Assembly (NCBI GenBank): GCA_001189195.1
Contig: LFCQ01000003.1
Span: forward strand, 7,059-71,058
Origin: Parcubacteria bacterium C7867-007
Lineage (GTDB): Bacteria > Patescibacteriota > Minisyncoccia > Phycocordibacterales > Phycocordibacteraceae
DNA length: 64,000 bases
Reading direction: 5' to 3'
This document shows positions 868 through 46,476 of the stretch, in pieces. Every line of letters begins with the position of its first letter. The stretch's first letter is position 1. Made by a program: the position numbers and the translations under genes. The notes beneath the pieces were generated by a model. It ran no database searches. It saw nothing but the letters and a program-made list of their open reading frames with translations, and was not told the origin of the DNA.

Positions 868-1334
868 CCTACACACGCAGCACAGGCATACTCCTAACCC
901 TTATAGCGGGCTTATTCCTCTTTGCTGCTACGACGACACAGGCGCAGACATGCACTCCGTCTTGTGGTACAGGAATGATCTGTGTGTATGAAGGATCTAA
1001 TGGATACACTGCAACATGTATAAAGGCTGCAGCTAGTGACGGTACGGTAGATGTGATTGAAGTGACCGCTACCGCAAAGTGTTCAGGAAAGTCTCTTTGT
1101 GCACTGGTGAACAACACTATTATTCCGATAGGTAACAGTATTGTTGGGTTGCTGTTTGCAGTGGCATTCCTCTTGTTTATCTATGGAATGTTTAAATACT
1201 TCTTCCTTAAGGGAGGAGATCCTAAAGCACGTTCAGAGGGCAGGATGTTCATGCTATGGAGTATTATTGCCTTTGCGGTGATGTTCTCCGTATGGGGACT
1301 AGTGAATCTCATCATTAATATAATTCCGACATAG
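864..1334 (+). CDS. secreted Cys-rich domain fused to a 2-TM pilin-like core (paralog 2)
   Basis: Signal peptide followed by a Cys-rich module (CTPSCGTGMICVYEG...CIKAA...CSGKSLC). Then helix 1, the loop GGDPKARSEGR, and helix 2 (SVWGLVNL). The motif is shared with ORFs at 1337, 1882 and 2300. Confidence 0.55.
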   Translation: MTYTRSTGILLTLIAGLFLFAATTTQAQTCTPSCGTGMICVYEGSNGYTATCIKAAASDGTVDVIEVTATAKCSGKSLCALVNNTIIPIGNSIVGLLFAVAFLLFIYGMFKYFFLKGGDPKARSEGRMFMLWSIIAFAVMFSVWGLVNLIINIIPT

Positions 1335-14146: not shown

Positions 14147-14327
14147 GGTCAGTCTCCTTGAATGGTTGGTACGCGTGAGCGCACCTTCCATAGAAGAAGA
14201 AAGAGTAATCGGAGGTGCGCGGTGATAGCCTGCAATCAGCCTTTATCTTCGATGACGCATTATGTCCTCCGTACGTTAATGTGCAGTACAGAAAGCATAA
14301 AAACACGTATAATATGAAAAGTCAATG

Positions 14328-14398
14328 CGGGCCCACGAGGAATCGAACCTCGGCCGACGGTTTTGGAGACCGACGTTCTACCATTAAACTATAGGCCC
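14328..14398 (-). tRNA. tRNA-Trp (anticodon CCA)
   Basis: Cloverleaf GGGCCTATAGTTTAATGGTAGAAC…, anticodon loop CTCCAAA, T-arm CGAGGTTCGATTCCTCG, discriminator G. Confidence 0.85.
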
Positions 14399-14473
14399 TG
14401 TATAGGAACGATAGCAGAACCGTGCGCTACGGGCAAAGCTGCTTATTTGAGGTGGTACGATACAAGTAACAAT

Positions 14474-15430: not shown

Positions 15431-16455
15431 TGTCGTACAATAGAAATACTTATATGGGAATGCGCGCTTTTCTTTTCTCTTCCAGTGCTGCAGCACTGGC
15501 ATCTGTGCCCTTTGCAGTCTTTGCGGCAGAGACAAGCTTCTTTGGTCCTATCATTCCACAGATTGGTGAGTGTGTATGCGAAGGAAGTGCAATGGATTGG
15601 GGATGTGTACTGGTTGTTGCGCAAGGATTTCTAGGAGCACTCGTTTCCTTTGGTGTTCTGGCAGTGGTCTTCTACATTGGCTATGCAGGCTTCACTCTTA
15701 TAACGAGTGGTGGTAACCCGGCAACCCGTACGAAAGCAAAGAATCGTATGCTCAGTGCCGTAGTTGGTCTCGCGGTTATTCTCGGGGCATTCCTTATCGT
15801 TGATACGGTAATGAAGATTCTCTATAACCCAGATACTGCTCTTGAAAGCGGCACCTTTGGTCCTTGGAATGAAATCTTTGTAGGAGGAGAAGAAAACTAT
15901 TGTGTTGCAGTGAATATGAATCCAGGTGTGCTGAATGATGGAAGTGTGGCAGACATTATAAGCAACGCACTTAATCCAGGCACCACTACCTCATCGACAA
16001 TGGGTGGAGGGACTGCTCCGTCAGGTTCAGGTGCTCCTAGCTCAGCGGGAGGAAGGTGTCAGGTTAAAACCAGTGGACCATGCGCAACCTCAAACTTCAC
16101 GGCAGCATTTGGTGCAGCGGCAGGTCAAGCCTCGCAAATCTGTTCTGCAGAAAGTGGTAACGGAACTCTTCTTGAAGGAGATAGAACCACTTCAGGCAAG
16201 CCGGTGTCGTTCGGACTCTTTCAGATTAATATAACGGCGCATCCTGTTGCTGGACTGCAGTGTCCAAAAGCATTTGATCGCTTGTTCACGGGGTCAAACA
16301 AGAACGTTAAAATACTAGATGCGGATCTCTATCAAAAGTGTAGAACGGCTGCTCTTAATAGTTCTAATAATGCAGCGGTTGCCGCTAAAATATTCAAGGG
16401 CGATAAAAATAGCTGGAGGCAGTGGAGTACCCGTAGAACGTGTGGATTACCCTAA
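15430..16455 (+). CDS. secreted pilin-like 2-TM module fused to a lytic transglycosylase (SLT/VirB1-like) domain
   Basis: TGATG overlap with the upstream gene. The mature N-terminus is identical to that gene (AETSFFGPIIPQ…) and it has the same GGNPATRTKAKNRM loop. C-terminal …CSAESGNG…SGKPVSFGLFQINIT… resembles the family-1 lytic transglycosylase catalytic motif (ES…GLMQ). Confidence 0.55.
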   Translation: MSYNRNTYMGMRAFLFSSSAAALASVPFAVFAAETSFFGPIIPQIGECVCEGSAMDWGCVLVVAQGFLGALVSFGVLAVVFYIGYAGFTLITSGGNPATRTKAKNRMLSAVVGLAVILGAFLIVDTVMKILYNPDTALESGTFGPWNEIFVGGEENYCVAVNMNPGVLNDGSVADIISNALNPGTTTSSTMGGGTAPSGSGAPSSAGGRCQVKTSGPCATSNFTAAFGAAAGQASQICSAESGNGTLLEGDRTTSGKPVSFGLFQINITAHPVAGLQCPKAFDRLFTGSNKNVKILDADLYQKCRTAALNSSNNAAVAAKIFKGDKNSWRQWSTRRTCGLP

Positions 16456-23529: not shown

Positions 23530-24237
23530 TCAAAACATCTCATGAACATCGATACGAAGTGCTTCAAGTATATGTTCTGGTTCTGACACAAGCTGTGCAC
23601 CGAGACGAATGAACTGGTGGGAACCAGCACTATTCATGTCACGTATACGGTGCGGAACACAGAGTAGGTCTCGATCGTATTCAGCGGCTAATCGTGCACT
23701 TATAAGCGTACCGGACTTCTCCCCTGCCTCTATCACGAGAACCGCATCAGCCATCCCCACCATGATCCGGTTACGCGAAGGGAAGTCTTGCACTTGTGCT
23801 TGGTGGTCCGATGGATGTTCAGATACCAGTGCACCACCCGCACTAAGTATTCTGTTTGCAAGATCAACGTTAGTGCGTGGATACAATACCGTATCTGATA
23901 GTCCTGAACCCGGAATACCGATGGTATGTATTCCCACTGCTAGTGCCGCTTCGTGCGCGCAGGCGTCAGCACCTAAAGCGAGACCAGAGATTATTGATAG
24001 AGGGTATCCAGCTAAGCCACCAATAAGATATTCGCAGGATTCTTTTCCATACGGTGTAAGAGCTCGTGAACCCACTACCGTTAAACATTTTGTTTCTGGT
24101 ATTGGTAACGTGCCACGTACCCAAAGCTGTTCTGGTGGGTTAGGGATCTGAAGTAATTGCAATGGAAACCTCTCTTTTGTAAGTATTGAAGCTTCCATGC
24201 ACTCATAATCGCAAATGAGTGATAGTGTTCCAGTCAA
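23530..24237 (-). CDS. dprA: DNA processing protein DprA/Smf (Rossmann domain only)
   Basis: GSRALTPYGKE…SGLALGADACAHEAAL…GIHTIGIPGSGL. Sits upstream of topA in the conserved dprA-topA arrangement. Confidence 0.8.
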   Translation of the reverse strand: MTGTLSLICDYECMEASILTKERFPLQLLQIPNPPEQLWVRGTLPIPETKCLTVVGSRALTPYGKESCEYLIGGLAGYPLSIISGLALGADACAHEAALAVGIHTIGIPGSGLSDTVLYPRTNVDLANRILSAGGALVSEHPSDHQAQVQDFPSRNRIMVGMADAVLVIEAGEKSGTLISARLAAEYDRDLLCVPHRIRDMNSAGSHQFIRLGAQLVSEPEHILEALRIDVHEMF

Positions 24238-35765: not shown

Positions 35766-35790
35766 GGAACGGCGTAAGTTGCGCCGTTCC
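35766..35790 (+). promoter_or_regulatory. perfect 9-bp stem-loop in the leader of the ECF sigma gene, 15 nt upstream of its ATG
   Basis: ggaacggcg-taagttg-cgccgttcc. No T-run follows, so it is not a terminator. Confidence 0.35.
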
Positions 35791-35805
35791 TGCACGTCAT
35801 ATCCT

Positions 35806-36315
35806 ATGGACCAGGACCAAGCAAAGGCATATTTCCTTGATATTCATGAGAAGCATGCGGATGAGATATTCCGATTCTGCCTCATGAAGGTCTCAAATAA
35901 GGAAAAGGCGGAGGATTTGACCCAAGAAGCATTTATGCGGTTTTGGCAGTCCGTTCGCACTGGAGAGACGATCCGTCAGGAGCGTGCCTTCCTCTATACA
36001 CTTGCTCGCAACCTGGTTATAGACTGGTACCGTAAGAAGAAGGAAAGCTCCCTCGACGCTATTCAGGAGGAGGGAATGGACTTTGCTGGAGAAGGGAAAG
36101 CAGATGTTGAGCAGCTTGCGCAGATGAACGAAGCCCTTGCGGTTATCGATACTCTTGATGCTTCATCTCGTGAAGCAGTGCTCCTCCGCTACGTGGAAGG
36201 GTGGTCTCCGCAAGAGATTGCCGCCCTCACCGGAGAAACAGCAAATGCCGTGTCTGTGCGTCTCAACCGTGCTATCAAGAAGGTGCAAGAACGAATACAT
36301 GCGACCAACCCGTAA
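35806..36315 (+). CDS. ECF-type RNA polymerase sigma-70 factor
   Basis: Region 2 (…LTQEAFMRFW…LYTLARNLVIDWYR…) and region 4 (…EIAALTGETANAVSVRLNRAIKKV…). Confidence 0.8.
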   Translation: MDQDQAKAYFLDIHEKHADEIFRFCLMKVSNKEKAEDLTQEAFMRFWQSVRTGETIRQERAFLYTLARNLVIDWYRKKKESSLDAIQEEGMDFAGEGKADVEQLAQMNEALAVIDTLDASSREAVLLRYVEGWSPQEIAALTGETANAVSVRLNRAIKKVQERIHATNP

Positions 36316-37363
36316 AACAACTGAATATCTAAAATCACTCCAGACTCTCAAGCTCGATGAGAGTGTTAAAGCACGTATGCGTGATGGACTTGATGCATAC
36401 GCTGATCTACACACTCTCAAGACTCCCATTTCAATACCTGTGCGCTCACCATTCTTTGCATACTCATTCATGCGCACAAGCTACGGAGTCTTTGCTGTTG
36501 CCCTCATGCTGCTCGTTTCCGGTACGGGTGCTGCCTACGCTTCCGAAGCAAGTGTGCCAGGAAGTCCTCTGTATAGGGTTAAGGTCTCTGTTATTGAGCC
36601 TGTACGTGGTGCTCTTATAACCAGTGCACAGGGTCAAGCGGAGTGGCATGCGAATCTTGCTGCACGTCGTCTTGAAGAAGCAACGAAGCTTGCGGTGGCC
36701 AATAAGCTTGATGCAGAATCTAGTGCATACCTCCAGGATCGATTTGAATCTGAAGTACGCATTTCAAGTCAGGCAGCGGATGCACTAACCGTAACAGGTA
36801 ACACAGAAGCAGCACTAGATGTGCGCTCCGATCTTGAAGCACGCATTACAGCTCACGCACAGATCCTTGGTCTCGTATCTGAACACCTTAAAGCAACGGT
36901 GGGTGAAGATGCTTCAGGTTTTCTTGATACCCGAGCATTTCTTGCGGTGATCAACGAACATCGTGAGGAGGTGGTACAAGCACGTCTGGCACTTGAAGAC
37001 TCTGCAAGTGACACCGATCCGGTGGTTACCCTTGCGCGTGCAGATGTAACGGCAAAGACCGTGGTCTCTCTTGCTCGTGCCAATCCAGCCGGTACTGTTG
37101 AAGATATTTCTGAACCTCATCTTGATACTGCTCGTGCTGCACTTATGCAGGCACAGGGAGCGTCAAGTGAAATAGAGGCTTCAAACAAGGCCCATGAGGC
37201 AGAGCGTGCTTCTGATGTAGCAACTATCCTTTTGCAGCACGCAAAACTGATTAGTACCCTCACTATTGCAACAAGCACAGCAACCACCACCCCTGTGGAA
37301 ATCCCAACAGAAACACCTGATGATACTGAGAAATCTGTTCAGAAGGACCCTATATCTCGATAA
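36299..37363 (+). CDS. putative anti-sigma factor / DUF5667-like membrane protein (overlaps the sigma stop)
   Basis: The start is reassigned to the ATG at 36299, which overlaps the sigma gene by 17 nt. Short cytoplasmic N-terminus, one TM helix, and a long Ala-rich helical extracytoplasmic domain. Confidence 0.45.
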   Translation: MRPTRKTTEYLKSLQTLKLDESVKARMRDGLDAYADLHTLKTPISIPVRSPFFAYSFMRTSYGVFAVALMLLVSGTGAAYASEASVPGSPLYRVKVSVIEPVRGALITSAQGQAEWHANLAARRLEEATKLAVANKLDAESSAYLQDRFESEVRISSQAADALTVTGNTEAALDVRSDLEARITAHAQILGLVSEHLKATVGEDASGFLDTRAFLAVINEHREEVVQARLALEDSASDTDPVVTLARADVTAKTVVSLARANPAGTVEDISEPHLDTARAALMQAQGASSEIEASNKAHEAERASDVATILLQHAKLISTLTIATSTATTTPVEIPTETPDDTEKSVQKDPISR

Positions 37364-37398: not shown

Positions 37399-39108
37399 AT
37401 GACGCAAAGCGAAGCGTTGCGAATCCTCGCAACGGGAGTAAACGTATTCCTAACAGGTGAGCCCGGTAGCGGTAAAACGCATACGGTTAACGCCTATGTG
37501 CAGTGGCTACGTGAGCGGGGCATCGAGCCTGCAGTAACTGCATCAACCGGTATTGCTGCCACCCATATTCAAGGCATGACCATTCACTCATGGAGTGGCA
37601 TTGGGGTTAAAGAGTTTCTGTCAGACGCTGATATAGATGCAATTGCAAGCAAGGAGCATGTGGTGCGACGTATTCAACGTACAAGCGTGCTTATCATAGA
37701 TGAGGTATCTATGCTCTCTGGCGCAGTACTCACCATGGTCGATGCAGTGTGTCGTGAAGTACGCCATCGTCCCGATGATGCGTTTGGGGGCATGCAGGTA
37801 GTACTTGTTGGTGACTTCTTTCAGCTTCCCCCTATTTCTCGTAACAACTCAGCATCATTTGCGTTTGAGTCTCCTGCATGGAAGGAACTTAAACTAGTTG
37901 CCTGCTATCTAACAGAGCAGCATCGCCAGGAAGATAAGAAGTTCCTAAATGTACTGGGTGCTATCCGTTCACGTGAATGGGACCAGGGAACCGTCTCTAC
38001 CATCATGACGCGTGAGACTGATGGGTATGAACTAGACGAAGACATCCCTCGCCTGTACACCCATAACGCTGATGTAGATCGCATCAATGAAGAGAAGCTT
38101 TCCACCCTAGAGGGAACGGGCAAGGTGTACCGCATGAGTGCAGAAGGAGCACCACCCCTTATAGAGGCACTTAAGCGTGGCTGTCTTTCTCCAGAAACAC
38201 TAACCCTTAAAGAGGGTGCGGTGGTGATGGGGACCAAAAACAATCCTGCAAATGGTATGACCAACGGTACTCTCGCAACAGTTACGGGCTTTGAGAAGGG
38301 ATCTAACTTCCCTATCGTTGAAACCTTTGATGGTCGCACACTCACCATTTCTGAATTGGAGTGGGCGGTGGAAGAAGGAGGACGGGTGCGTGCAAAGATA
38401 CGACAGATTCCACTGCGTCTTGCATGGGCAATCACCGTGCACAAGAGTCAGGGTATGAGTATGGATGCTGCAGCAATAGATCTTTCTCGTGCCTTTGAAT
38501 ATGGGCAAGGGTATGTTGCACTCTCCCGTGTACGATCACTCGCAGGTCTGCACATACTTGGATGGAGTGAGGGTGCCTTTCAGGTACACCCTGAAGTGGG
38601 ACGAAAGGATGATGAATTCCGTTCTCTATCTGAGGAAGCGCGCATTGCCTTTGATCAGCTCGAAGAAGCAGGTGAACGTGAAGCACTTGCACGCAGCTTT
38701 GTTCGTTTCAGTGGTGGTACCTATGAACCTGAATTTAAAAAGGCTGCTGAGGGAACGGTATCACTTCCTAAAGCAGCAAAGCGAAGTACCTATGACATCA
38801 CTCTTGAACTTCTTAAGGAAGGAAAGTCTCTTGATGAGATTGCAAAGGAACGAAACCTAACTCTTGGGACCATCTGCGGACACGCAGAGAAGCTACTAAC
38901 TGCAAAGCGCATTGAACGAGACCTTATCCAGACCGCTATTTCTGATCGTTTGAACGCAAGTCTGCCTAAAATACAAACCGCATTCAAGAAGTTTCCTAGC
39001 AAAGAGTTAACACCCATATTTGCACACCTGAAGGGTGCCTATACGTTTGATGAACTTAAACTAGCTCGCCTGCTTATGGATGAAGAGGTGGCCCAGGAGG
39101 TATGGTAG
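37399..39108 (+). CDS. PIF1/RecD-like SF1 helicase with C-terminal helix-turn-helix extension
   Basis: Walker A GEPGSGKTH, DEVSM, and C-terminal AITVHKSQGMSMD…GQGYVALSRVRS (UvrD_C_2-like). Confidence 0.8.
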   Translation: MTQSEALRILATGVNVFLTGEPGSGKTHTVNAYVQWLRERGIEPAVTASTGIAATHIQGMTIHSWSGIGVKEFLSDADIDAIASKEHVVRRIQRTSVLIIDEVSMLSGAVLTMVDAVCREVRHRPDDAFGGMQVVLVGDFFQLPPISRNNSASFAFESPAWKELKLVACYLTEQHRQEDKKFLNVLGAIRSREWDQGTVSTIMTRETDGYELDEDIPRLYTHNADVDRINEEKLSTLEGTGKVYRMSAEGAPPLIEALKRGCLSPETLTLKEGAVVMGTKNNPANGMTNGTLATVTGFEKGSNFPIVETFDGRTLTISELEWAVEEGGRVRAKIRQIPLRLAWAITVHKSQGMSMDAAAIDLSRAFEYGQGYVALSRVRSLAGLHILGWSEGAFQVHPEVGRKDDEFRSLSEEARIAFDQLEEAGEREALARSFVRFSGGTYEPEFKKAAEGTVSLPKAAKRSTYDITLELLKEGKSLDEIAKERNLTLGTICGHAEKLLTAKRIERDLIQTAISDRLNASLPKIQTAFKKFPSKELTPIFAHLKGAYTFDELKLARLLMDEEVAQEVW

Positions 39109-39150: not shown

Positions 39151-39618
39151 ATGATGAAAGTGTTCGGTTTAGCTATGATTGTGGTTCTTGCCGTTGGCGC
39201 ACTTGCGTTCTGGGTACGCATGCAAACAGACCTACCCACAGTTTCTCTTCCAACAGTTGAATCGCTGGTTGAGGCAAAGCCAGTGATCCTCACCGCGAGT
39301 GTTGCAAATGCCATTAGTGAAAATGAAGATCAATATGTTGATCGTACAGGAATGATTCTTCTTGATACTGCAGGGGGAACCTCCGTACCTTATATTCAAT
39401 ACGCAACAGATAACGAGAAAGTTGCCACGAGACAACTAATATTCGCAGGAAGTCGTGGCTGTGCCGCCAATGCAGGTGATCTCCCTTGTGTGGCAGTGGA
39501 TCCTGATGCGGCGTACCCTCAGTACCCAACCGGCACCAATGTCCGAGTGCGGGGTATGCAGATGGCAGATCGTATTTTGGTGTATCAGATCGATGTCGTA
39601 ACACCAGCTGCGAATTAA
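39151..39618 (+). CDS. hypothetical membrane-anchored/secreted protein
   Basis: N-terminal hydrophobic anchor, 155 aa. Confidence 0.4.
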   Translation: MMKVFGLAMIVVLAVGALAFWVRMQTDLPTVSLPTVESLVEAKPVILTASVANAISENEDQYVDRTGMILLDTAGGTSVPYIQYATDNEKVATRQLIFAGSRGCAANAGDLPCVAVDPDAAYPQYPTGTNVRVRGMQMADRILVYQIDVVTPAAN

Positions 39619-39642
39619 ACCCTCAGGACGTATACTGATGCT

Positions 39643-40218
39643 ATGACGCGATTTGGATGGATGGTATTGGGGCTTGTATTGCTGGGTATCGCACTTATCG
39701 CAGCAGGCTGGTACTTGGTTCGTAACTACGCCACACAACAGAGTCCAGCACCTATCGCGACGTCCACTCCTCAAACTGATCTCACTGAGAGCTCCATATA
39801 TACGAATGGTACGTATGGATTCTCTATCATCTATCCAGCATCAGATAGTATTTCTGAATCCTTCACCCCGTGGCGCGCAGGAGCCGTAGCGAGTGGCACA
39901 CCGCTTGTATCAATCACTGATATAGAAGGGGTGGTACGAGTGGGTGCAAGTTCTGACCCTAAGGCAATTGATTCTTGTATTAAAACGGGGCAAGCAGAAA
40001 AAGTATTAGCAGACATGGCACTTGGCAGCAGCACGTTTAAAGTTTTCACACGTGATGAGGTGGGGACCGAAAATGAACGACGTATAACCAGCTACCGCAC
40101 TATTCATGAAAAGGCATGTGTGGCGATAGAGCTATTTCAGCCATTAATGGAGGGGGTACCTGCTACAAGTACTCGATTGAACGATATGTTGTTAAGTTTC
40201 TCGTTCGCGCGCCCATAG
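39643..40218 (+). CDS. hypothetical membrane-anchored protein
   Basis: N-terminal TM helix, 191 aa. Confidence 0.4.
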   Translation: MTRFGWMVLGLVLLGIALIAAGWYLVRNYATQQSPAPIATSTPQTDLTESSIYTNGTYGFSIIYPASDSISESFTPWRAGAVASGTPLVSITDIEGVVRVGASSDPKAIDSCIKTGQAEKVLADMALGSSTFKVFTRDEVGTENERRITSYRTIHEKACVAIELFQPLMEGVPATSTRLNDMLLSFSFARP

Positions 40219-40294
40219 CGCACCTTGGTCCATTGAATCTATTGATAGCAGAGGTACCATATATACACGCCTATCAGCACTAACCTTATTCTGT

Positions 40295-40630
40295 ATGATG
40301 CTCATCGTTCACTGGATTATCTCTGCAATTGCCATTGTTATCTCTGCGTACCTCATTCCAGGGGTGCAAGTCACCCTTGTGAGTGCTTTGGTTCTTGCGG
40401 TGGTACTTGGCATCATTAACACCTTCCTTAAGCCCGTTGTTAATTTGATTACTCTTCCAATTAACATCATTACGCTTGGACTGTTCTCATTGGTGATTAA
40501 TGCGCTGTTTATTCTTCTGGCTGCACAGGTTGTGCCAGACTTCTCCGTTACCGGCTTCTGGCCTGCATTCTTCTTTGCAATTGTGCTCTCACTGGTGAAT
40601 GCGGTGCTTGGTGCGATGAATCGCGACTAG
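40295..40630 (+). CDS. 4-TM small membrane protein of the phage-holin-IV / DUF360 (YvlD-like) type
   Basis: 111 aa with four hydrophobic helices and a pattern typical of that family (…WIISAIAIVISAYLIPGV…). Confidence 0.5.
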   Translation: MMLIVHWIISAIAIVISAYLIPGVQVTLVSALVLAVVLGIINTFLKPVVNLITLPINIITLGLFSLVINALFILLAAQVVPDFSVTGFWPAFFFAIVLSLVNAVLGAMNRD

Positions 40631-40650
40631 TTAGTATAGAAAAACGGATG

Positions 40651-40680
40651 GGGCTCAGGGGTGAACCCCTGAGCCCTTTT
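40651..40680. terminator. bidirectional rho-independent terminator
   Basis: gggctcagggg-tgaa-cccctgagccc followed by tttt. Confidence 0.6.
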
Positions 40681-40981
40681 CTGTATAGCCACCGTTTTCA
40701 AGTCTATTAACGACAGCGCTGACGTGTTTGTCGAGGTCATTCTTGTACTCTCGGATCTCGACTTCACCGCGTCGTGCGTACTGCCGGATCACATACCCCT
40801 CGCGAAGTTCTCCCGGCAGCAACTGCAGAATGAAGCCGTTCAGGTTAAGGCAGCGATGCAATTTGTCTTTTGGAATGTACCACTGCGTACAGAGCCACCA
40901 GACTAAGCACACCGCCCCGATGACAAACTCAAGGAATCCCATGAGCGCCATATACAAACGAGTACCCATTTCAACCTCCAA
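40655..40981 (-). CDS. hypothetical small membrane protein
   Basis: 108 aa with an N-terminal TM segment. Its 3' end overlaps the terminator hairpin. Confidence 0.3.
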   Translation of the reverse strand: MEVEMGTRLYMALMGFLEFVIGAVCLVWWLCTQWYIPKDKLHRCLNLNGFILQLLPGELREGYVIRQYARRGEVEIREYKNDLDKHVSAVVNRLENGGYTEKGSGVHP

Positions 40982-41080
40982 AGATCAGATTTAGAGAAAG
41001 CATGTGTTTCAAGATCGATTGTCAATATATTCAACGCATAACTAATCGCGAAGGGCAAAGCGTGTCGTATACTTATCGTA

Positions 41081-43831
41081 ATGGCACTGGAAGGACCAGC
41101 GCGACCAATACGGTCGCCAGAAGAAGAACTTGCATACCTGCGTGCAGAAGTGCTCGCAAAGGAACAAGAACTTGCTTCACTGCGCGTGGATAAACCACGT
41201 GAGACTGTCATACATGAACGCATTCTGCACCATGCAGAACAGCCGGGACACCAGGTACTTGATTCGAAGTACCAGATGAAGCAGGAGGAGAAGCACGAGC
41301 TTGCACTTAACCTTGAGCCTCGGGCTGATGATGAGACCATGGAGGAACTCCGAAAGATTATCGAGACAAAAGGCATTCATAATGCGTTCGGTGTACTTGA
41401 GAAGCTTAAAAACCCGCACCTAGAAGATGATTTCCATCGGTTCCTTGTGCAGTATCTTCTTGCAGGTATGCCACTTGGCATGAATGAGAAGCAGCCAGAG
41501 TGGAAAGGTCTCCATATGACGCTGTATGAAGTCTCCTTGCCTGAGGCAAACGCTGATGATGAATCACGGAGGAAATCTCTTAAGGAATTGATATCTGCTA
41601 TGGAGCAGTTCTATTCCGGTATGCTTGCAACAGAGCATGCGGTTGCAGGAGAGCCTGCACACTTCACGCTTGAACTAGCTGTACCGGTAAACAAAGCTCA
41701 TTTGATGTTTTATGCCGCTGTTCCAAACACCAAGCGTGATTTGTTTGAGAAACAACTGCTCGCCATCTTCCCAAGTGCACACATCGCTCCACAACCAAAC
41801 GACTACAACATCTTCACGAATGGTGGTGCATCATTTGGTTCGGTAGCGGCACTAGGAAGGCCGGGTATGCTTCCTTTAAAGGATTACGGAGACTTTGATT
41901 ATGATCCAATCAATTCGATCCTAAACGCCTTTGCAAAGATTGCCCCTGAAGGTGAGGGTGCATCACTGCAAATCGTTATTGCGCCACAAGGAGATAGATT
42001 CATAAAACACTACAGGAAGGTATTGAGTGCACTTCGTAGCGGAGAGACGAGTCATACCGCCTTTCATCTTCCCGAGTCTTTCTTGGGAGAAGCAGCACGC
42101 GATATCACTAAGACTTTTTTCAGCAAACAGAAGACAGAGGATGACTCTCAAGAGAAGGCACGACAAATTGAATCTAATAAAGGAGAAATTGAGCATGTTG
42201 AGCGAAAGCTAGCGGCACAAATAGTCGCTACCAATATGAGATTGGTAGTTTCCTCAATGGATGGAAATAGAGCTGAACAGATATTGGGTGAGCTCGAGTC
42301 TGCGTTCCATCAGTTTGAGAACCCAACGAGTAACCGGATTGAATGGAAACGAGTGTCGCGTAACACCCAGCGTACCCTCTTTCATGACTTCACCTTTCGC
42401 ACCTTTGAAAAGGGCAGTGAAGTACCTCTTTCAATTAAGGAGCTCACCACCATCTTCCATTTCCCTCCTTCAGGTATTGCATCATCTCCGCATCTAAAGC
42501 AATCTCGCTTCACCGCAGCAGCTGCTCCACTAGAACTTCCTCATGAAGGTATTCAACTTGGTACTAATACGTATCGTGGGCAAGACACGGATGTGTTGCT
42601 GGCACCCGAAGATCGTCTCCGTCATTTGTATGTGATCGGACAAACTGGTACCGGTAAGACATCATTTATGAAAACGCTCATTGAGCAGGACATAAAAGCG
42701 GGGAATGGTGTTTGTTTCATTGATCCCCATGGCAATGACATTCTTGATGTGCTGGCATGCGTGCCTCCTGAGCGATATGAGGATGTTATATACTTTGACC
42801 CCGCATATCTTGATCGCCCTTTTGGTCTCAATCTCCTGGAATACGATCCTGCATTCCCTGAACAGAAGACATTCATAGTTAACGAGCTCCTTGCAATCTT
42901 CCGTCGTTTGTATGGAGATGTACCTGAATCCATGGGCCCTGCCTTTGAACAGTATTTCCGCAACGCAACATTGCTCGTGATGGAAGACCCTGCTTCAGGT
43001 TCAACTCTCATGGATATTGGTCGGGTGCTTTCAAATAAAGACTTTAGAGATCTAAAACTATCTCGGAGCATGAATCCGGTAGTGAATCAGTTCTGGAATG
43101 AAATAGCCTCACAGGCTGAAGGTGAGGCATCACTTGCAAACATTGTGCCGTACATCACAAACAAGTTTGATGACTTCACCGCGAATGATTTCATGCGTCC
43201 TATCATTGGCCAACAAGAATCATCCTTCAACTTCCGGGACATCATGGACAAGAGAAAGATTCTTCTGGTGAATCTTTCTAAGGGTCGTTTGGGTGAACGG
43301 AATGCAAACCTCATTGGTTTGATCATGGTGGGCAAACTCTTTATGGCGGCACTTTCTCGTGCAGATGATCCACGGGCAGTGTTCCCTCCGTTCTATGTGT
43401 ATATAGATGAATTCCAAAACATAACCACAGACTCAATTCCCGCTATCCTCTCTGAAGCACGCAAATACAAGCTTTCCATGACCATGGCACACCAGTTCTT
43501 GGCACAGGTTGATGAAAAGACTCGTGATGCAGTATTCGGGAACGTGGGATCCATGGCTGTGTTCCGAGTTGGCCAGGAGGATGGAGAATTCTTTGCAAAA
43601 CAATTTGCACCCACGTTCTCTGCGCCAGACTTCATTAACATTGAAAACTACAACGCATACGTGCGTATGCTTGCAAATGGTGTTCCTCAAAAGCCATTCA
43701 ACATCCACTCACTAAAGCCCGTTGAAGGAAATCAAAATCAGATTGATGACTTACGAGAACTTTCATACCTCACGTATGGACGTGATCGTGCTACTGTTGA
43801 GGGAGCAATTAGAGCAAAATATCTTTCGTAA
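41081..43831 (+). CDS. FtsK/HerA-superfamily ATPase of type-IV-secretion type (VirB4/TraC/TrbE-like or VirD4/TraD-like); no N-terminal TM helices
   Basis: 916 aa with a mid-protein Walker A (LYVIGQTGTGKTSFMKTL) followed by CFIDPHGNDIL. Walker B/C-terminal block YVYIDEFQNITT…EARKYKLSMTMAHQFLAQV…AVFGNVGSMAVFRVG, as in T4SS ATPases. Confidence 0.6.
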   Translation: MALEGPARPIRSPEEELAYLRAEVLAKEQELASLRVDKPRETVIHERILHHAEQPGHQVLDSKYQMKQEEKHELALNLEPRADDETMEELRKIIETKGIHNAFGVLEKLKNPHLEDDFHRFLVQYLLAGMPLGMNEKQPEWKGLHMTLYEVSLPEANADDESRRKSLKELISAMEQFYSGMLATEHAVAGEPAHFTLELAVPVNKAHLMFYAAVPNTKRDLFEKQLLAIFPSAHIAPQPNDYNIFTNGGASFGSVAALGRPGMLPLKDYGDFDYDPINSILNAFAKIAPEGEGASLQIVIAPQGDRFIKHYRKVLSALRSGETSHTAFHLPESFLGEAARDITKTFFSKQKTEDDSQEKARQIESNKGEIEHVERKLAAQIVATNMRLVVSSMDGNRAEQILGELESAFHQFENPTSNRIEWKRVSRNTQRTLFHDFTFRTFEKGSEVPLSIKELTTIFHFPPSGIASSPHLKQSRFTAAAAPLELPHEGIQLGTNTYRGQDTDVLLAPEDRLRHLYVIGQTGTGKTSFMKTLIEQDIKAGNGVCFIDPHGNDILDVLACVPPERYEDVIYFDPAYLDRPFGLNLLEYDPAFPEQKTFIVNELLAIFRRLYGDVPESMGPAFEQYFRNATLLVMEDPASGSTLMDIGRVLSNKDFRDLKLSRSMNPVVNQFWNEIASQAEGEASLANIVPYITNKFDDFTANDFMRPIIGQQESSFNFRDIMDKRKILLVNLSKGRLGERNANLIGLIMVGKLFMAALSRADDPRAVFPPFYVYIDEFQNITTDSIPAILSEARKYKLSMTMAHQFLAQVDEKTRDAVFGNVGSMAVFRVGQEDGEFFAKQFAPTFSAPDFINIENYNAYVRMLANGVPQKPFNIHSLKPVEGNQNQIDDLRELSYLTYGRDRATVEGAIRAKYLS

Positions 43832-43841
43832 CAATTGATGT

Positions 43842-45836
43842 ATGTCTGAATGGCCTCCAAATAGAACACCAACACAGAAGGAAGAGGTACCTGAAACTGT
43901 TGAAGTTGAACAGGTATCACGAACCCACAATGAACATGTTGATACGCATACGGAATCTGCAGAAGTCTTTCAAGCAGCAAACGAAGATTTCGAACACGAA
44001 GCACAACTCCTAGAGAAAGGTGCCACTGATCAATATATGGAAATCGCAGCTCATATTCGAGCTGCAGGTGTTGAGCCTAATGATATTAAGGATGCATGGG
44101 GTCCAGCATACAGTCTCCTAACACGTATGCGCGGAGCCGCTCATTCCTATGGAACTGCAAAAACAAGCGCAGATCGGAAGAAGTTGTTGAAGCTATACAA
44201 CAAGCTAGAAAATGAACTTCTCACTGATATTGCACCAAAAACAAAGGCTGCAACTGAAGCATGGTTAGAGAATCATGAGCCAAAGGAAGTATCACCAGAT
44301 GCTGGGTTGGAGGAACTAGGTGATCTTGAACATGTTGAGACTCCATCTGAGATTGTGACTGAACCAGAGGTTCAAGAAACAGATGGACCTTCTCCTGATA
44401 CCAGTAACGGAGTTAAGGGTATTGATAGTGATGCAGATGAGCCAATCACTATGCTCAACCCAGCGCTTAATAAGTTGTTTGAGGGCAAGCAGAAGAAGCC
44501 CAAAGCTCGTACTCCGCGTGTAAAACCACTTGTATTCAGTGAGCCTGAACCATGGATGACGACATACAAAGGAGGTACAGACAGTATTCCTGAGACCCAC
44601 GCCGAACAGAAGGCCGCATTGCGTCGTAGTGTAGAGGAAATCCAGAAGGACCTAGATACTAAGCAGGCAATTCTAAAAGCCTTTTACGCAAATGCTGCAA
44701 AGACTGAAGGTATCAAAGAAACCAAACGCTTCCAGGAACATAATGGTGGGAAGGTTGAGGACAGTCTTGAAAAGAAGATTGTTGATACCGAAGCAGAGGT
44801 TATCAAGCTTGAGAAAGAGCGAGCTGAAGCAGCTGCAGCTCCACACATGGAAACTGCAGTAGCTGCTGCAGAGATCGCCAGCGATGTTGTTGCAGATCAG
44901 TCGGAGCAGGAAGTGAATGATAGTAACGTGTTTGAGCTAGCAGACGCACGAGACGCACGTATGAAAGCGCGTCAGCAGAGTATCGTAAAGAAGCATGGCA
45001 AGGGAATGGTAGGTGCTCTGGGTGCACTCGTTGTTTCATTCTTCGGATTCTCCTCAACAGAGAAAAGTACTGCAGCGGAGAATGCCGAGAACACTGCACG
45101 ATTTACTTCAACGGGGGCAGTACAAGAGCAAAAGGCAGAGGGTGAAAGAATCTTGGCAGGCGGAAAACCAAAACCAGTAGTGATTCCTTCCTCGAGAAAG
45201 ACACGTGTCACACAATCTGAGGTTGATACTCCAGAGATTGATCGCACCAGTGATATTGAATTGATCAATAGGGAACAATTAAAGGTAGACAGACCCCTAG
45301 AGGAACACGGTCTCCCAGTAGGCACCGATGCAAGGATTAGTGACTTCTTGAAGGAGATTAAAGAAAGAGATGCGCGCCCAACAGTATTAACCTCAGTCTC
45401 TGAATCAACTGTTTCCGATGGGGCACCAGAATTAAAGTCAGGTCCGGAATCTGTATCCGACCTTGCAGAAATGAATGTAGGTATTCTTGATGAAAAGAAA
45501 GTCTATACCAATAGACACGGAGAAACTATTGATCTGAGTGTTCCTAAGCAGTACGCATGGCGTATGCCTGGAAGCAAGGAGACATTCCCTGTGGTAGATG
45601 GAGGTACTCAAGAAGAACGTGAAGCATGGGCAGATGAGTTTTTAAACAACAACCCAGGCTTTGAATACATACTAGTTCCAACACGTAACCAAGTATCAGG
45701 AGAGGTGGAGTTGCGAATGCGAACCCGGGAGAAGAATGTTAGTTCAGGGCTGGTTGGTCCCGTGTGGCTTAAGAACACAGGATCCGAGCTTCCTGTACCA
45801 AGCCCTGAAGATTATGTGCGTCGCCCTGGGACCTAG
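43842..45836 (+). CDS. large acidic, predicted disordered protein with one central TM helix; 10 bp downstream of the ATPase
   Basis: 664 aa, Glu/Asp/Lys-rich, with a single hydrophobic segment (GMVGALGALVVSFFGF). Confidence 0.5.
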   Translation: MSEWPPNRTPTQKEEVPETVEVEQVSRTHNEHVDTHTESAEVFQAANEDFEHEAQLLEKGATDQYMEIAAHIRAAGVEPNDIKDAWGPAYSLLTRMRGAAHSYGTAKTSADRKKLLKLYNKLENELLTDIAPKTKAATEAWLENHEPKEVSPDAGLEELGDLEHVETPSEIVTEPEVQETDGPSPDTSNGVKGIDSDADEPITMLNPALNKLFEGKQKKPKARTPRVKPLVFSEPEPWMTTYKGGTDSIPETHAEQKAALRRSVEEIQKDLDTKQAILKAFYANAAKTEGIKETKRFQEHNGGKVEDSLEKKIVDTEAEVIKLEKERAEAAAAPHMETAVAAAEIASDVVADQSEQEVNDSNVFELADARDARMKARQQSIVKKHGKGMVGALGALVVSFFGFSSTEKSTAAENAENTARFTSTGAVQEQKAEGERILAGGKPKPVVIPSSRKTRVTQSEVDTPEIDRTSDIELINREQLKVDRPLEEHGLPVGTDARISDFLKEIKERDARPTVLTSVSESTVSDGAPELKSGPESVSDLAEMNVGILDEKKVYTNRHGETIDLSVPKQYAWRMPGSKETFPVVDGGTQEEREAWADEFLNNNPGFEYILVPTRNQVSGEVELRMRTREKNVSSGLVGPVWLKNTGSELPVPSPEDYVRRPGT

Positions 45837-45891: not shown

Positions 45892-46422
45892 ATGCAAGTT
45901 ACTTCTACTGGTATCGCTGTGGCCCTTGCGGTCGTTGTGGCACTCGGGCTTCTTTTCTTTGGGCCTAGCGTGTTTGCTCCGTTCTCTTCAGAACCAGCGG
46001 CAACAGAGATGGAAATGATGCAGATGGCAACAACTACCGAATCCATGGATATAAATAATGAAGCAATGGGTGCATCAGCAGCAAATGCACTGCCAACTCA
46101 ATTCACCGTAACTGACGTTGTTGTTGGTACCGGTGCAGAGGCAACTGCAGGAAAAACAGTAACCGTTAACTATGTTGGAATGCTTCCAGACGGTACGGTC
46201 TTCGATGCGTCTGCAAATCATGGCACCACAGGTTTCAGCTTTCCTCTCGGTGCAGGTCGCGTCATTAAGGGATGGGATCAGGGTGTTGCGGGTATGAAAG
46301 TGGGTGGCAAGCGTCATCTCGTGATTCCTCCAGAGCTAGCCTATGGAAATCAGGCAGTGGGTGGAGTTATTCCTGCGAATGCAACACTCGTATTTGATGT
46401 TGAATTGGTTAACGTTCAGTAA
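45892..46422 (+). CDS. FKBP-type peptidyl-prolyl cis-trans isomerase (secreted)
   Basis: Signal peptide plus FKBP domain (…GWDQGVAGMKVGGKRHLVIPPELAYG…). Confidence 0.8.
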   Translation: MQVTSTGIAVALAVVVALGLLFFGPSVFAPFSSEPAATEMEMMQMATTTESMDINNEAMGASAANALPTQFTVTDVVVGTGAEATAGKTVTVNYVGMLPDGTVFDASANHGTTGFSFPLGAGRVIKGWDQGVAGMKVGGKRHLVIPPELAYGNQAVGGVIPANATLVFDVELVNVQ

Positions 46423-46438
46423 GAAAAGATAAGAAGAA

Positions 46439-46476
46439 GGACCCGGCACGAATGTGCGCCGGGTCCTTTTTGTTTG
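46439..46476 (+). terminator. rho-independent terminator after the FKBP gene
   Basis: ggacccggc…gccgggtcc hairpin followed by tttttgttt. Confidence 0.65.

What the first reader, a model, noticed from the sequence alone, without database searches (positions are those of the whole stretch)
39151..45836. T4SS-type FtsK/HerA ATPase with a 664-aa acidic partner and small membrane proteins, without other recognisable secretion-system components
The 916-aa protein (41081-43831) has:
- a mid-protein Walker A (GQTGTGKT) followed by FIDPHGND;
- a C-terminal block IDEFQN…ARKYKLSMTMAHQ…AVFGNVGSMAVFRV.

This pattern is typical of VirB4/TraC/TrbE and VirD4/TraD-type ATPases. It has no N-terminal TM helices, which favours a VirB4-like protein.

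Neighbouring genes:
- 10 bp downstream, a very acidic, mostly disordered protein with a single central TM helix (43842-45836);
- upstream, two membrane-anchored hypotheticals (39151-39618 and 39643-40218), a 4-TM holin-IV/DUF360-like protein (40295-40630), and a convergent small membrane protein.

No VirB6/8/9/10, relaxase or integrase is recognisable. With the pilin-like family elsewhere in the window, this suggests a dispersed, minimal type-IV-secretion or pilus-like apparatus rather than a classical conjugative island.
Basis: partly seen in the sequence, partly recalled or inferred. Interest (0 to 1): 0.6.

Follow-up and report, generated by a model that had tools for sequence, protein, structure and literature searches.

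The report
Orphan soluble type-IV coupling-protein ATPase operon
This gene encodes a membrane-helix-free relative of the motor that feeds DNA into bacterial conjugation machines; it is fixed as a highly conserved chromosomal gene across the ultra-small Patescibacteria, and its function there is still unknown.

Summary
The window comes from Parcubacteria bacterium C7867-007. The 916-aa protein has three parts:
- a helical N-module (residues 1-135), which is a separate ~140-aa gene in other lineages;
- a DUF8128 domain (136-486), whose only significant PDB fold matches are TrwK/VirB4 chains;
- a motor (487-916) that is coupling-protein (T4CP) type by sequence and fold (TrwB, DotL), not VirB4, FtsK or HerA type.

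The family is very large: 5,298 50%-identity clusters at E<=1e-30 and more than 597 species genomes. Its motor is as conserved as UvrB, and it sits among housekeeping genes. Relatives with the same architecture sit in the coupling-protein slot next to Replic_Relax relaxases in Bacillus and Embleya conjugation clusters. They also occur in SPO1-like phages.

Terminator-like hairpins bracket an operon of ATPase, 664-aa bitopic partner and membrane-anchored FKBP. The partner evolves very fast and is limited to one clade. The upstream small membrane genes lie across a terminator and are not conserved partners.

Verdict: this is a domesticated, soluble T4CP-type translocase, already noted in bulk in 2025 as orphan patescibacterial T4CP homologues.

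The parts
41081..43831 (+). 916-aa ATPase. It is a member of the DUF8128 / DUF87 / TraG-D_C family: a soluble coupling-protein-type translocase.
   Evidence: It is 100% identical to P0001 of Parcubacteria bacterium C7867-007, which carries precomputed PF26449, PF01935 and PF12696. The AF2 model has pLDDT 89.8.
41081..41485 (+). N-terminal helical module, residues 1-135. It is encoded as a separate ~140-aa gene directly upstream of the ~800-aa short-form ATPases in other lineages.
   Evidence: The region is all-helical in the model. An HMM built from the separate '-1' genes hits residues 13-127 of the window protein (28.3 bits). It also hits the N-termini of more than 30 long-form homologues. 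The '-1' gene family was found.
41486..42538 (+). DUF8128 domain, residues 136-486. Its fold resembles the N-terminal domain of VirB4/TrwK.
   Evidence: The domain-only AF2 model has pLDDT 92.6 and pTM 0.91. In Foldseek against the PDB, the only nine hits with E<=1e-3 are all TrwK/VirB4 chains (best 2.6e-6, TMq 0.40-0.43). No TrwB, HerA or FtsK chain appears.
42539..43831 (+). Coupling-protein-type motor, residues 487-916. It has a helical insertion (about residues 595-700) between Walker A and Walker B.
   Evidence: TrwB matches with TM-score 0.61-0.67 (normalised to TrwB) and rmsd 4.3-5.9 over about 413-447 columns. Cag-beta, DotL and HerA also match. A family profile against PDB sequences gives TrwB 3.8e-7, DotL 2.5e-6 and HerA 1e-3.
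42638..42661 (+). Walker A motif, GQTGTGKT, residues 520-527.
   Evidence: Read directly from the sequence. G520, G523 and K526 are invariant in 74 homologues.
43403..43420 (+). Walker B block, IDEFQN, residues 775-780.
   Evidence: Read directly from the sequence. D776 and E777 are invariant.
43842..45836 (+). 664-aa acidic bitopic partner. It has a cytoplasmic N-terminal half, one hydrophobic helix and a variable C-terminal half. It is proposed to tether the ATPase to the membrane.
   Evidence: It starts 10 nt after the ATPase stop. It has only two database hits: itself and C7867-008 at 45% identity. Positional equivalents of 545-1045 aa occur only in the closest clade, and only some of them are detectably similar to each other. 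The window partner's one hit among them is to L027, E=2e-4 over its C-terminal ~100 residues.
45003..45053 (+). The single hydrophobic, glycine-rich helix of the partner, residues 388-404.
   Evidence: The Kyte-Doolittle 17-residue mean is 1.82 and the next best segment scores 0.86. The preceding KKHGKG suggests an N-in orientation. The helix is conserved in P0122.
45892..46422 (+). Membrane-anchored FKBP-type prolyl isomerase, the last gene of the inferred operon.
   Evidence: FKBP_C matches at E=1.4e-33. It has an N-terminal hydrophobic helix. It lies downstream of the ATPase in 10 of the 11 related loci that carry it; in L069 it is upstream.
40650..40677 (.). Bidirectional terminator-like hairpin (12-bp stem, 9 G-C pairs) between the holin-like gene and the ATPase. 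It marks the upstream end of the operon.
   Evidence: Terminator scan and sequence.
46437..46468 (.). Terminator-like hairpin (13-bp stem) just after the FKBP gene. It marks the downstream end of the operon.
   Evidence: Terminator scan.
40295..40630 (+). Phage_holin_4_2 / DUF360-like four-helix membrane protein. It is adjacent and recurs upstream in the closest clade, but it lies on the other side of the terminator, so it is probably not part of the unit.
   Evidence: Pfam match at E=1.2e-30. Present in 8 related loci.

Best explanation
The 916-aa protein is the local copy of a chromosomal ATPase family found throughout Patescibacteria. That family descends from the coupling proteins (T4CPs) of conjugation systems in single-membrane bacteria.

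The protein combines three elements:
- a TrwB/VirD4-type motor, including the helical insertion typical of T4CPs;
- a VirB4-like N-terminal-domain fold (DUF8128);
- a small helical N-module that is a separate gene in other lineages.

It has no membrane helix of its own.

In this genome it is transcribed together with two other genes. One is a fast-evolving bitopic protein whose conserved cytoplasmic half most likely docks the ATPase at the membrane and whose variable half faces outward. The other is a membrane-anchored FKBP foldase.

The most likely mechanism is that the motor forms a ring at the membrane and uses ATP to recruit and push a macromolecule towards an envelope channel encoded elsewhere. 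The substrate is most likely nucleic acid, given the family's relatives; protein is less likely. The most plausible channel is the patescibacterial T4SS, whose VirB2-like pilins and a VirB1-like lysozyme fusion lie 25-40 kb away in the same window.

Shown here: gene structure, domain architecture, family membership, conservation, operon boundaries and the contexts of relatives.

Inferred: ring assembly, tethering by the partner, the nature of the substrate and coupling to the T4SS.
For: Identity:
- Pfam DUF87 and TraG-D_C match (25.3 bits against a cut-off of 22). TraD and CD1115 VirD4-like models score far above VirB4 models.
- The family profile hits TrwB and DotL first in the PDB.
- Foldseek gives TrwB a TM-score of 0.61-0.67, normalised to TrwB, over almost the whole of TrwB.
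- In a reference panel the motor HMM scores TrwB 36.5, Tn916 Orf21 17.7, PcfC 10.3 and FtsK 8.4 bits. Four VirB4s score at most 1.6 bits.
- DUF8128 matches only VirB4 chains.
- The catalytic residues are invariant.

Relatives occupy the coupling-protein slot:
- B. subtilis plasmid NZ_CP154917 has the order ParM, DUF8128-DUF87 protein, Replic_Relax, TcpC, TcpE, AAA_10 VirB4-like.
- An Embleya plasmid has the order PrgI, ATPase, DUF8128+motor protein, Replic_Relax, NlpC/P60.
- SPO1 gp27.4 lies next to the Replic_Relax protein gp27.3. PMC3357382 called it a 'coupling ATPase'.

Domestication:
- The family has 5,298 clusters at E<=1e-30 and is in more than 597 species genomes.
- Immediate neighbours are housekeeping genes.
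- The motor is 76-86% identical across genomes where UvrB is 77-81% identical.
- GC content is flat.

Operon: a 10-nt gap to the partner and flanking hairpins.

T4SS parts in the same window: four PF18895 pilin genes, one of them fused to SLT_3.

Literature: PMC12102498 reports 5,713 VirD4-like T4CP homologues in 2,918 of 3,035 Patescibacteria genomes, only 148 of them near virB4.
Against: - No part of the mechanism was tested.
- The ATPase is not linked to virB4, virB6 or any relaxase, either here or in the immediate neighbours of 80 related loci.
- T4CP homologues occur in more genomes than VirB4 (2,918 against 2,417 of 3,035), which fits a role independent of the T4SS.
- The T4CP homologue of S. 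epibionticum was not essential, whereas the T4SS genes were. It was not established whether that homologue belongs to this DUF8128 family.
- The partner is absent from most lineages, and apparently from one close relative (L005), so tethering by it cannot be general.
- The small DUF5663 protein accompanies the ATPase in 16 related loci and on a Rhodococcus plasmid, but it is missing from this window.
- The DUF8128 to VirB4 fold match is only moderate (TM about 0.4).
Confidence: 0.55

Rival explanations
1. The protein is a housekeeping DNA translocase that works without any T4SS. It would be a ring ATPase acting on the cell's own chromosome in segregation, repair or recombination, in the manner of FtsK or HerA.
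For: - The context is core-gene everywhere. In the ~50%-identity clade the order is secY, adk, map, ATPase, ndk, beta-CASP RNase. Here the neighbours include a Pif1-like helicase, tgt and uvrB/uvrA/uvrC.
- Motor conservation equals that of UvrB.
- T4CP homologues are present in more Patescibacteria genomes than VirB4.
- The phage and plasmid relatives lie next to ParM/MreB-like partition proteins.
Against: - There is no Pfam FtsK_SpoIIIE match, and FtsK scores only 8.4 bits against the motor HMM.
- The HerA matches are restricted to the P-loop.
- Both non-motor features, the VirB4-like domain and the TrwB-like helical insertion, are specific to secretion ATPases.
- The closest relatives outside Patescibacteria sit in conjugation clusters.
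Confidence: 0.2
2. The protein is a VirB4-type assembly ATPase. It would energise assembly of a minimal pilus or T4SS built from the VirB2-like pilins scattered in the genome.
For: - There is no transmembrane helix.
- The two-domain layout is collinear with TrwK/VirB4 over about 900 alignment columns, giving the best E-values of the PDB search.
- DUF8128 matches only VirB4 chains.
- Pilin genes are present in the window.
Against: - VirB4 models are far below threshold: TIGR00929 scores 16.5 against a cut-off of 643.1, and there is no CagE_TrbE_VirB or AAA_10 match.
- Four reference VirB4 proteins score at most 1.6 bits against the motor HMM.
- The Bacillus plasmid carries a family member alongside a separate AAA_10 VirB4-like ATPase. 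The Embleya plasmid likewise has a second, unclassified ATPase.
- Patescibacteria have their own monophyletic VirB4, usually near dnaA.
Confidence: 0.07
3. The protein is a HerA-like ATPase of an anti-phage defence system.
For: There are weak PADLOC matches to mad8 (E=6e-12), DndH and HerA models. Except for mad8, they are confined to the P-loop region.
Against: - There is no effector partner such as a Sir2, nuclease or DUF4297 protein.
- The gene is near-universal, single and syntenic, with housekeeping-level conservation. Defence genes are typically patchy.
- The neighbours are core genes.
Confidence: 0.03

Closest known systems
VirD4/TrwB-type type IV coupling proteins (R388 TrwB, PDB 1E9R/1GKI; DotL; Cag-beta)
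   Same: - The motor fold matches, including a helical insertion between Walker A and Walker B.
- TrwB has a TM-score of 0.61-0.67 (normalised to TrwB) over almost its whole soluble part.
- The best profile hits in the PDB are TrwB and DotL.
- Pfam TraG-D_C is above its cut-off.
   Different: - There is no N-terminal transmembrane domain.
- There are about 485 extra N-terminal residues, the N-module and DUF8128.
- All curated TraD/VirD4 models are far below their cut-offs.
- The gene is chromosomal and housekeeping-like, with no relaxase or T4SS genes beside it.
DUF8128-DUF87 proteins in the coupling-protein slot of Gram-positive conjugation clusters, and SPO1-like phage proteins (B. subtilis plasmid NZ_CP154917 WP_345805471; Embleya WP_331738717; SPO1 gp27.4; phage G gp156; 0305phi8-36 orf201)
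   Same: - The architecture is the same. The DUF8128 HMM gives E=1e-31 (B. subtilis plasmid), 2e-29 (SPO1 gp27.4) and 3e-15 (Embleya).
- The motor HMM scores them 184, 116 and 294 bits respectively.
- The Bacillus and SPO1 proteins have no transmembrane helix.
- The full-length fold match to phage JL has TM 0.58 over 849 columns.
   Different: - Those proteins lie directly next to a Replic_Relax relaxase, and in the plasmids next to T4SS genes such as TcpC, TcpE, AAA_10 and PrgI. The patescibacterial copies have neither.
- They lack the N-module.
- Identity to the window protein is only about 20-27%.
VirB4/TrwK (PDB 7O42, 8RTD)
   Same: - Both have a two-domain layout with no transmembrane helix.
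- DUF8128 resembles the VirB4 N-terminal domain at fold level.
- A small upstream protein is alternately separate or fused. From my own knowledge, not tested here, VirB3-VirB4 fusions behave the same way.
   Different: - There is no sequence-level similarity to VirB4 in either domain.
- The fused N-module is soluble, unlike VirB3.
- The motor is T4CP-type.
Orphan VirD4-like T4CP homologues of Patescibacteria (Quinonero-Coronel et al. 2025, PMC12102498)
   Same: This is very probably the same set of genes. The paper reports 5,713 homologues in 2,918 of 3,035 genomes, mostly far from virB4, and notes that they may have been exapted for other functions. NCBI already names this protein 'putative Type IV secretory pathway VirD4 component'.
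   Different: The passages of that paper read here give counts only. The architecture (VirB4-like DUF8128, split or fused N-module), the DUF5663 association, the clade-specific partner and the link to Replic_Relax-associated plasmid and phage proteins come from this analysis.
FtsK/SpoIIIE and HerA translocases
   Same: They belong to the same ASCE P-loop superfamily. There is a DUF87 P-loop match, and HerA appears among the fold hits.
   Different: - There is no FtsK_SpoIIIE match, gamma domain or membrane domain.
- The HerA matches cover only the P-loop.
- FtsK scores 8.4 bits in the panel.

Membership tests
Type IV coupling protein (VirD4/TrwB/TraD) | A nucleotide-binding domain of TrwB type with Walker A and Walker B motifs | tested here: met
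   The motifs are invariant. TrwB and DotL are the top profile hits in the PDB. TrwB has TM-score 0.61-0.67. In the panel TrwB scores 36.5 bits against at most 1.6 for VirB4s.
Type IV coupling protein (VirD4/TrwB/TraD) | An all-alpha domain inserted in the nucleotide-binding domain | tested here: inconclusive
   Six helices (residues 595-700) lie between Walker A and Walker B. The alignments to TrwB span about 413-447 columns of its 411-427 residues. However, Pfam TrwB_AAD_bind matches only the P-loop and is below its cut-off (17.9 against 20.5).
Type IV coupling protein (VirD4/TrwB/TraD) | An N-terminal transmembrane domain | tested here: not met
   No hydrophobic segment is found in the 916 residues. 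TrwB, PcfC and Orf21 all have one.
Type IV coupling protein (VirD4/TrwB/TraD) | A score above the curated cut-off of a T4CP family model | tested here: inconclusive
   Pfam TraG-D_C scores 25.3 against a cut-off of 22, so that model is met. NCBIfam SXT_TraD (48 against 366), TOL_TraD (36 against 648) and CD1115 (36 against 250) are not met.
Type IV coupling protein (VirD4/TrwB/TraD) | Genetic linkage to a relaxase and/or mating-pair-formation genes | tested here: not met
   There is none in the window and none among the immediate neighbours of 80 related loci. The feature is met only in plasmid and phage relatives.
VirB4 (TrwK/CagE/TrbE; AAA_10 in Gram-positives) | A match to VirB4 family models | tested here: not met
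   TIGR00929 scores 16.5 against a cut-off of 643.1, and VirB4_plasma scores 16.1 against 590. There is no CagE_TrbE_VirB or AAA_10 match. TrwK, PrgJ, Orf16 and the Bacillus AAA_10 protein score at most 1.6 bits against the motor HMM.
VirB4 (TrwK/CagE/TrbE; AAA_10 in Gram-positives) | A VirB4-type N-terminal domain preceding the motor | tested here: met
   This holds at fold level only. The nine PDB hits with E<=1e-3 for the DUF8128 model are all TrwK/VirB4 chains, with TMq 0.40-0.43. The full-length model aligns over about 900 columns. The residue ranges of the alignments were not available. That the match is to the N-terminal domain is inferred from the absence of TrwB, HerA and FtsK hits.
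VirB4 (TrwK/CagE/TrbE; AAA_10 in Gram-positives) | Adjacency to VirB3, VirB6 or VirB8-like genes | tested here: not met
   None are present in the window.
DUF8128 family (PF26449) | A match to PF26449 | tested here: met
   PF26449 is precomputed on the identical protein P0001 and on all 120 listed homologues. The name DUF8128 is given. The Pfam copy available to me lacks this model, so I could not rescore the match.
FtsK/SpoIIIE | An FtsK_SpoIIIE motor match, a membrane domain and a gamma domain | tested here: not met
   There is no Pfam match at E<=0.01. E. coli FtsK scores 8.4 bits. There is no transmembrane segment.
HerA | A full HerA central-domain match, a HAS-barrel, and a NurA or effector partner | tested here: not met
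   The DUF87 match covers only profile positions 3-62 of 220. The PADLOC HerA hits cover only the P-loop. There is no nuclease partner among the neighbours.

The most novel reading that the evidence does not exclude
The DUF8128 coupling-protein ATPase, conserved across Patescibacteria, may be a domesticated conjugation motor running in reverse or repurposed. It would be the cytoplasmic engine that pulls host-derived nucleic acid (RNA or DNA) into these nucleotide-auxotrophic epibionts through the T4SS pilus or channel.

This would explain several observations:
- its near-universality;
- its housekeeping-level conservation;
- the loss of the relaxase;
- its recurrent placement beside nucleotide-salvage genes (adk upstream; ndk and a beta-CASP RNase downstream).

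A second, compatible novelty is architectural. The family joins a VirB4-type N-terminal domain to a VirD4-type motor. It could therefore preserve the ancestral state from which the two T4SS ATPases diverged.
Probability: 0.1. Interest if true: 0.85.

Novelty: new variant of a known kind. Interest (0 to 1): 0.5.

Why it matters
Patescibacteria depend on host cells, and their T4SS is essential in the one genetically tractable species. Yet that T4SS lacks a recognisable coupling protein, and its substrate is unknown (PMC10633639; PMC12102498).

This analysis points to a ubiquitous, strongly conserved, soluble coupling-protein-type motor as a concrete candidate for the missing substrate-handling ATPase. 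Alternatively it could be a T4SS-independent translocase. Either way, the analysis provides an architecture and testable partners: the N-module, DUF5663 and the clade-specific bitopic protein.

It also defines a third architectural type of coupling protein, which is soluble and carries a VirB4-like domain. This type is shared with Replic_Relax-type conjugative plasmids of Bacillota and Actinomycetota and with large Bacillus phages. That is relevant to how VirB4 and VirD4 diverged.

Tried and rejected
- A literature search for 'DUF8128' returned nothing.
- The homology search with the partner returned only itself and one 45%-identical protein. Direct comparison with positional partners of related loci gave no significant match, apart from one C-terminal stretch of about 100 aa.
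- PADLOC gave only P-loop-level or weak hits, so the defence hypothesis was rejected.
- DUF5663 was searched for in the whole window with tblastn and with an HMM over six-frame ORFs. It is absent.
- The idea that the small upstream membrane proteins form an apparatus with the ATPase was rejected. They lie across a terminator, are not conserved, and the convergent ORF is an orphan.
- Whether the genome encodes a canonical FtsK, VirB4 or VirB6 could not be tested.
- The literature search on FtsK in the Candidate Phyla Radiation gave nothing decisive for Parcubacteria.

Full report
**Observation.** The ATPase is 41081-43831 (916 aa). The partner is 43842-45836 (664 aa) and starts 10 nt after the ATPase stop. 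Two genes encoding proteins with an N-terminal hydrophobic helix lie at 39151-39618 and 39643-40218. A Phage_holin_4_2 protein lies at 40295-40630 (E=1.2e-30). A convergent ORF lies at 40655-40981. The quoted motifs are present, and their key residues are invariant in 74 homologues down to about 30% identity. The ATPase has no hydrophobic segment. The partner has pI 4.95 and a single hydrophobic, glycine-rich stretch at residues 388-404, preceded by KKHGKG.

**Source and setting.** The ATPase is 100% identical to a protein of 'Parcubacteria bacterium C7867-007', on a 298-kb contig. NCBI already names it 'putative Type IV secretory pathway VirD4 component'. GC content is flat across the window. 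Every neighbour that can be identified is a housekeeping gene. These include an ECF sigma factor with a DUF5667 protein, a Pif1-like helicase, FKBP, tgt, uvrB, uvrA, uvrC, topA, dprA, serS, parB, relA/spoT, clpB, infB, alr and ddl, plus seven tRNAs. This is not a mobile island.

**Anatomy of the ATPase.** An AlphaFold2 model built from a 74-sequence alignment is confident (pLDDT 89.8). It shows three parts:
- Residues 1-135 form a helical module.
- Residues 136-486 form an alpha/beta domain, which precomputed Pfam annotation calls PF26449, DUF8128.
- Residues 487-916 form the P-loop motor, with six helices (about residues 595-700) inserted between Walker A and Walker B.

**The DUF8128 domain.** Modelled alone, it gives pLDDT 92.6 and pTM 0.91. 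Searched against the PDB, it gives nine hits with E<=1e-3, and all nine are TrwK/VirB4 chains (best 2.6e-6, TMq 0.40-0.43). The next hits are unrelated ferredoxin-like proteins, and no TrwB, HerA or FtsK chain appears. TrwB, HerA and FtsK share the motor fold with VirB4, so their absence implies that the match is to the VirB4-specific N-terminal domain. This is an inference, because the residue ranges of the alignments were not returned.

**The motor.** The full-length model aligns with TrwK over about 900 columns. It superposes best on TrwB, with TM-score 0.61-0.67 normalised to TrwB and rmsd 4.3-5.9 over about 413-447 columns. Cag-beta, DotL and HerA follow.

**Sequence-level classification.**
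- Pfam gives DUF87 (P-loop part only) and TraG-D_C (25.3 bits against a cut-off of 22).
- NCBIfam gives partial TraD (48 bits) and CD1115 VirD4-like (36 bits) matches. VirB4 models reach only about 16 bits. All are far below the equivalog cut-offs.
- A profile of the family searched against all PDB sequences finds TrwB (3.8e-7), DotL (2.5e-6) and HerA (1e-3). It finds no VirB4 or FtsK.
- I assembled a reference panel from R388, pCF10/Tn916, E. coli and the plasmid hits and scored it with HMMs of the three parts. The motor HMM gives TrwB 36.5 bits, Tn916 Orf21 17.7, PcfC 10.3, FtsK 8.4 and VirB11 5.7. The four VirB4s (TrwK, PrgJ, Orf16 and a Bacillus AAA_10 protein) score at most 1.6.

The motor is therefore coupling-protein (T4CP) type. 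The VirB4 likeness is confined to the fold of the middle domain.

**Size and conservation of the family.** A search of 1.84 billion 50%-identity representatives gives 20,925 hits at E<=1e-3 and 5,298 at E<=1e-30. The best 80 are almost all Patescibacteria MAGs by title or are generically labelled, spanning Kaiser-, Nomura-, Taylor-, Zambryski-, Adler-, Moran-, Falkow- and Komeilibacteria among others. Compared with syntenic genomes, the motor is 76-86% identical where UvrB is 77-81% and Tgt is 64-79%. DUF8128 is 47-66% identical and the N-module 35-61%. This is housekeeping-level purifying selection.

**Two forms of the ATPase.** One form is about 910 aa, as here. The other is about 800 aa, and its match to the window protein begins near residue 142. 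The short form is preceded by a conserved gene of about 140 aa. An HMM of that gene hits residues 13-127 of the window protein (28.3 bits) and the N-termini of more than 30 long forms. The N-module is therefore alternately a separate gene or fused to the ATPase.

**Relatives outside Patescibacteria.**
- PHROG 5156 matches over nearly the full length (E=9.5e-69).
- SPO1-like Bacillus phages carry homologues such as gp27.4. Phage G gp156 and a phage JL protein share the whole fold, with TM 0.58 over 849 columns for JL.
- In SPO1 the gene lies between a 'partition protein' and gp27.3, which is a Replic_Relax protein. Pathria et al. 2012 called gp27.4 and 0305phi8-36 orf201 a 'coupling ATPase' in a phage 'DNA translocation operon' (PMC3357382).
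- tblastn finds relatives on 297 plasmids.
- On a 27.5-kb B. subtilis plasmid the gene order is ParM, DUF87 protein, Replic_Relax, TcpC, TcpE, AAA_10 VirB4-like. The DUF87 protein is 885 aa, matches my DUF8128 HMM at E=8e-34 and the motor HMM at 184 bits, and has no transmembrane helix.
- On an Embleya plasmid the order is PrgI, ATPase, DUF8128+motor protein, Replic_Relax, NlpC/P60.

Outside Patescibacteria, the architecture thus occupies the coupling-protein slot next to a relaxase in conjugation systems of single-membrane bacteria. At least the Bacillus cluster also carries a separate VirB4.

**Neighbourhood.**
- A 12-bp-stem bidirectional hairpin at 40650-40677 separates the holin-like gene from the ATPase. 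A 13-bp-stem hairpin at 46437-46468 follows the FKBP gene. The inferred operon is therefore ATPase, partner, FKBP.
- The partner has only one detectable homologue, in the sister genome C7867-008 (45% identity). The N-terminal half and the hydrophobic helix are conserved between the two, and the C-terminal half diverges.
- Positional equivalents of 545-1045 aa occur only in the closest clade and a few others. Only some of them are detectably similar to each other, and the window partner's one hit is to L027 over its C-terminal ~100 residues. One close relative (L005) appears to lack the partner.
- The FKBP gene recurs near the ATPase in 11 loci and the holin-like gene in 8. The two small membrane genes occur only in one or two close genomes. 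The convergent ORF has a good ribosome-binding site but no homologue.
- A Pfam census of the immediate neighbours in 80 loci shows ndk (11 loci), map (6), SAICAR synthase (3) and similar genes, and no T4SS family among the 25 most frequent families shown.
- In the ~50%-identity clade the order is secY, adk, map, ATPase, ndk, small membrane protein, beta-CASP RNase.
- A small acidic DUF5663 protein accompanies the ATPase, on the same strand, in 16 patescibacterial loci. It also follows a related ATPase on a Rhodococcus plasmid. It is absent from this window.

**Interpretation.** The best-supported reading is a domesticated, soluble coupling-protein-type translocase. Ring formation, membrane docking through the cytoplasmic half of the partner, a nucleic-acid substrate and hand-over to the patescibacterial T4SS are all inferences.

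The T4SS link is plausible for two reasons. The window holds four PF18895 VirB2-like pilin genes, one of them fused to a lysozyme-like domain. Patescibacterial T4SS clusters also usually lack a nearby coupling protein.

Three observations argue against the link:
- There is no genetic linkage to T4SS genes.
- T4CP homologues occur in more genomes than VirB4 (2,918 against 2,417 of 3,035).
- The S. epibionticum T4CP homologue is non-essential.

A T4SS-independent housekeeping translocase is therefore the main rival. A VirB4-type assembly ATPase and a defence HerA are unlikely.

A speculative but not excluded reading is that this is the motor for import of host nucleic acid. That reading draws on the salvage-gene neighbours and a 2026 preprint on RNA-feeding Paceibacteria.

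**Novelty.** The gene is already annotated as VirD4-like. The abundance of orphan T4CP homologues in Patescibacteria was reported in 2025, and the phage homologues were noted in 2012. What this analysis adds:
- the VirB4-like fold of DUF8128;
- the split or fused N-module;
- the DUF5663 association;
- the clade-specific, fast-evolving partner and the operon structure;
- the link to Replic_Relax-type conjugation clusters.

I class it as a new variant of a known kind, of moderate interest.

Noticed in passing
window 864-1334, 1337-1783, 14363-15430, 15430-16455: There are four genes with the PF18895 T4SS_pilin (VirB2-like) domain, arranged as two tandem pairs. The last one also carries an SLT_3 lysozyme-like (VirB1-like) domain. 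No VirB4 or VirB6 lies beside them within the window.
   Followed up: partly
L001, L002, L004, L006, L008, L027, L035, L044, L067, L069 (about 2-3 kb downstream of the ATPase); L047, L048, L053, L076, L077, L078 (upstream); L086:8888-9211: A ~100-aa acidic DUF5663 protein sits on the same strand next to the ATPase in 16 patescibacterial loci. It also follows a related ATPase on Rhodococcus plasmid pYYL1.1. This window has none, so the module here is incomplete or the gene has moved.
   Followed up: partly
L009, L013, L014, L018, L019, L021, L023, L025, L031, L036, L049 and others: In the ~50%-identity clade the ATPase is inserted after secY, adk and map. It is followed within tens of bases by ndk, and often by a small membrane protein and a beta-CASP/RMMBL ribonuclease. 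This is a nucleotide-salvage context.
   Followed up: partly
window 40655-40981 (-): A convergent ORF, about 104 aa from the internal ATG at 40969, has a GGAGG-N5-ATG ribosome-binding site and one N-terminal hydrophobic helix. It ends in the bidirectional hairpin at 40650-40677. It has no homologue in any of the related loci, so it is either an orphan gene or a spurious ORF.
   Followed up: partly
window 37399-39108: A Pif1/RecD-like SF1B helicase with a C-terminal HTH_40 domain lies upstream of the small membrane genes. It is conserved in the same place in L001 (67% identity) and in L043 (47%). It gives partial matches to the helicase part of TraA-type relaxases but has no relaxase domain.
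   Followed up: partly
window 14327-14398 (-) and 14363-15430 (+): The tRNA-Trp gene overlaps the 5' end of the mechanically called pilin-domain ORF, which has a TTG start at 14363. The true start of that ORF is probably further downstream.
   Followed up: no
window 35779-36315 and 36137-37363: An ECF-type sigma factor is followed by a DUF5667 membrane protein, which is probably its anti-sigma factor. The mechanically called ORFs overlap by about 180 nt, so the second gene probably starts later. In L001 it is 357 aa and begins right at the end of the sigma gene.
   Followed up: no
window 23530-24237 (-) and 20968-23376 (-): DprA (the DNA-processing protein of natural transformation) lies next to topoisomerase I, about 17 kb upstream of the ATPase. 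This is noted as possible context for DNA uptake, but no linkage was shown.
   Followed up: no
L084 (SPO1 92636-97329), L085 (B. subtilis plasmid NZ_CP154917): The same three-gene arrangement appears in a lytic Bacillus phage and in small Bacillus plasmids: a ParM/MreB-like partition protein, the DUF8128 ATPase and a Replic_Relax protein. This suggests a mobile 'partition, coupling ATPase, nickase' module.
   Followed up: partly
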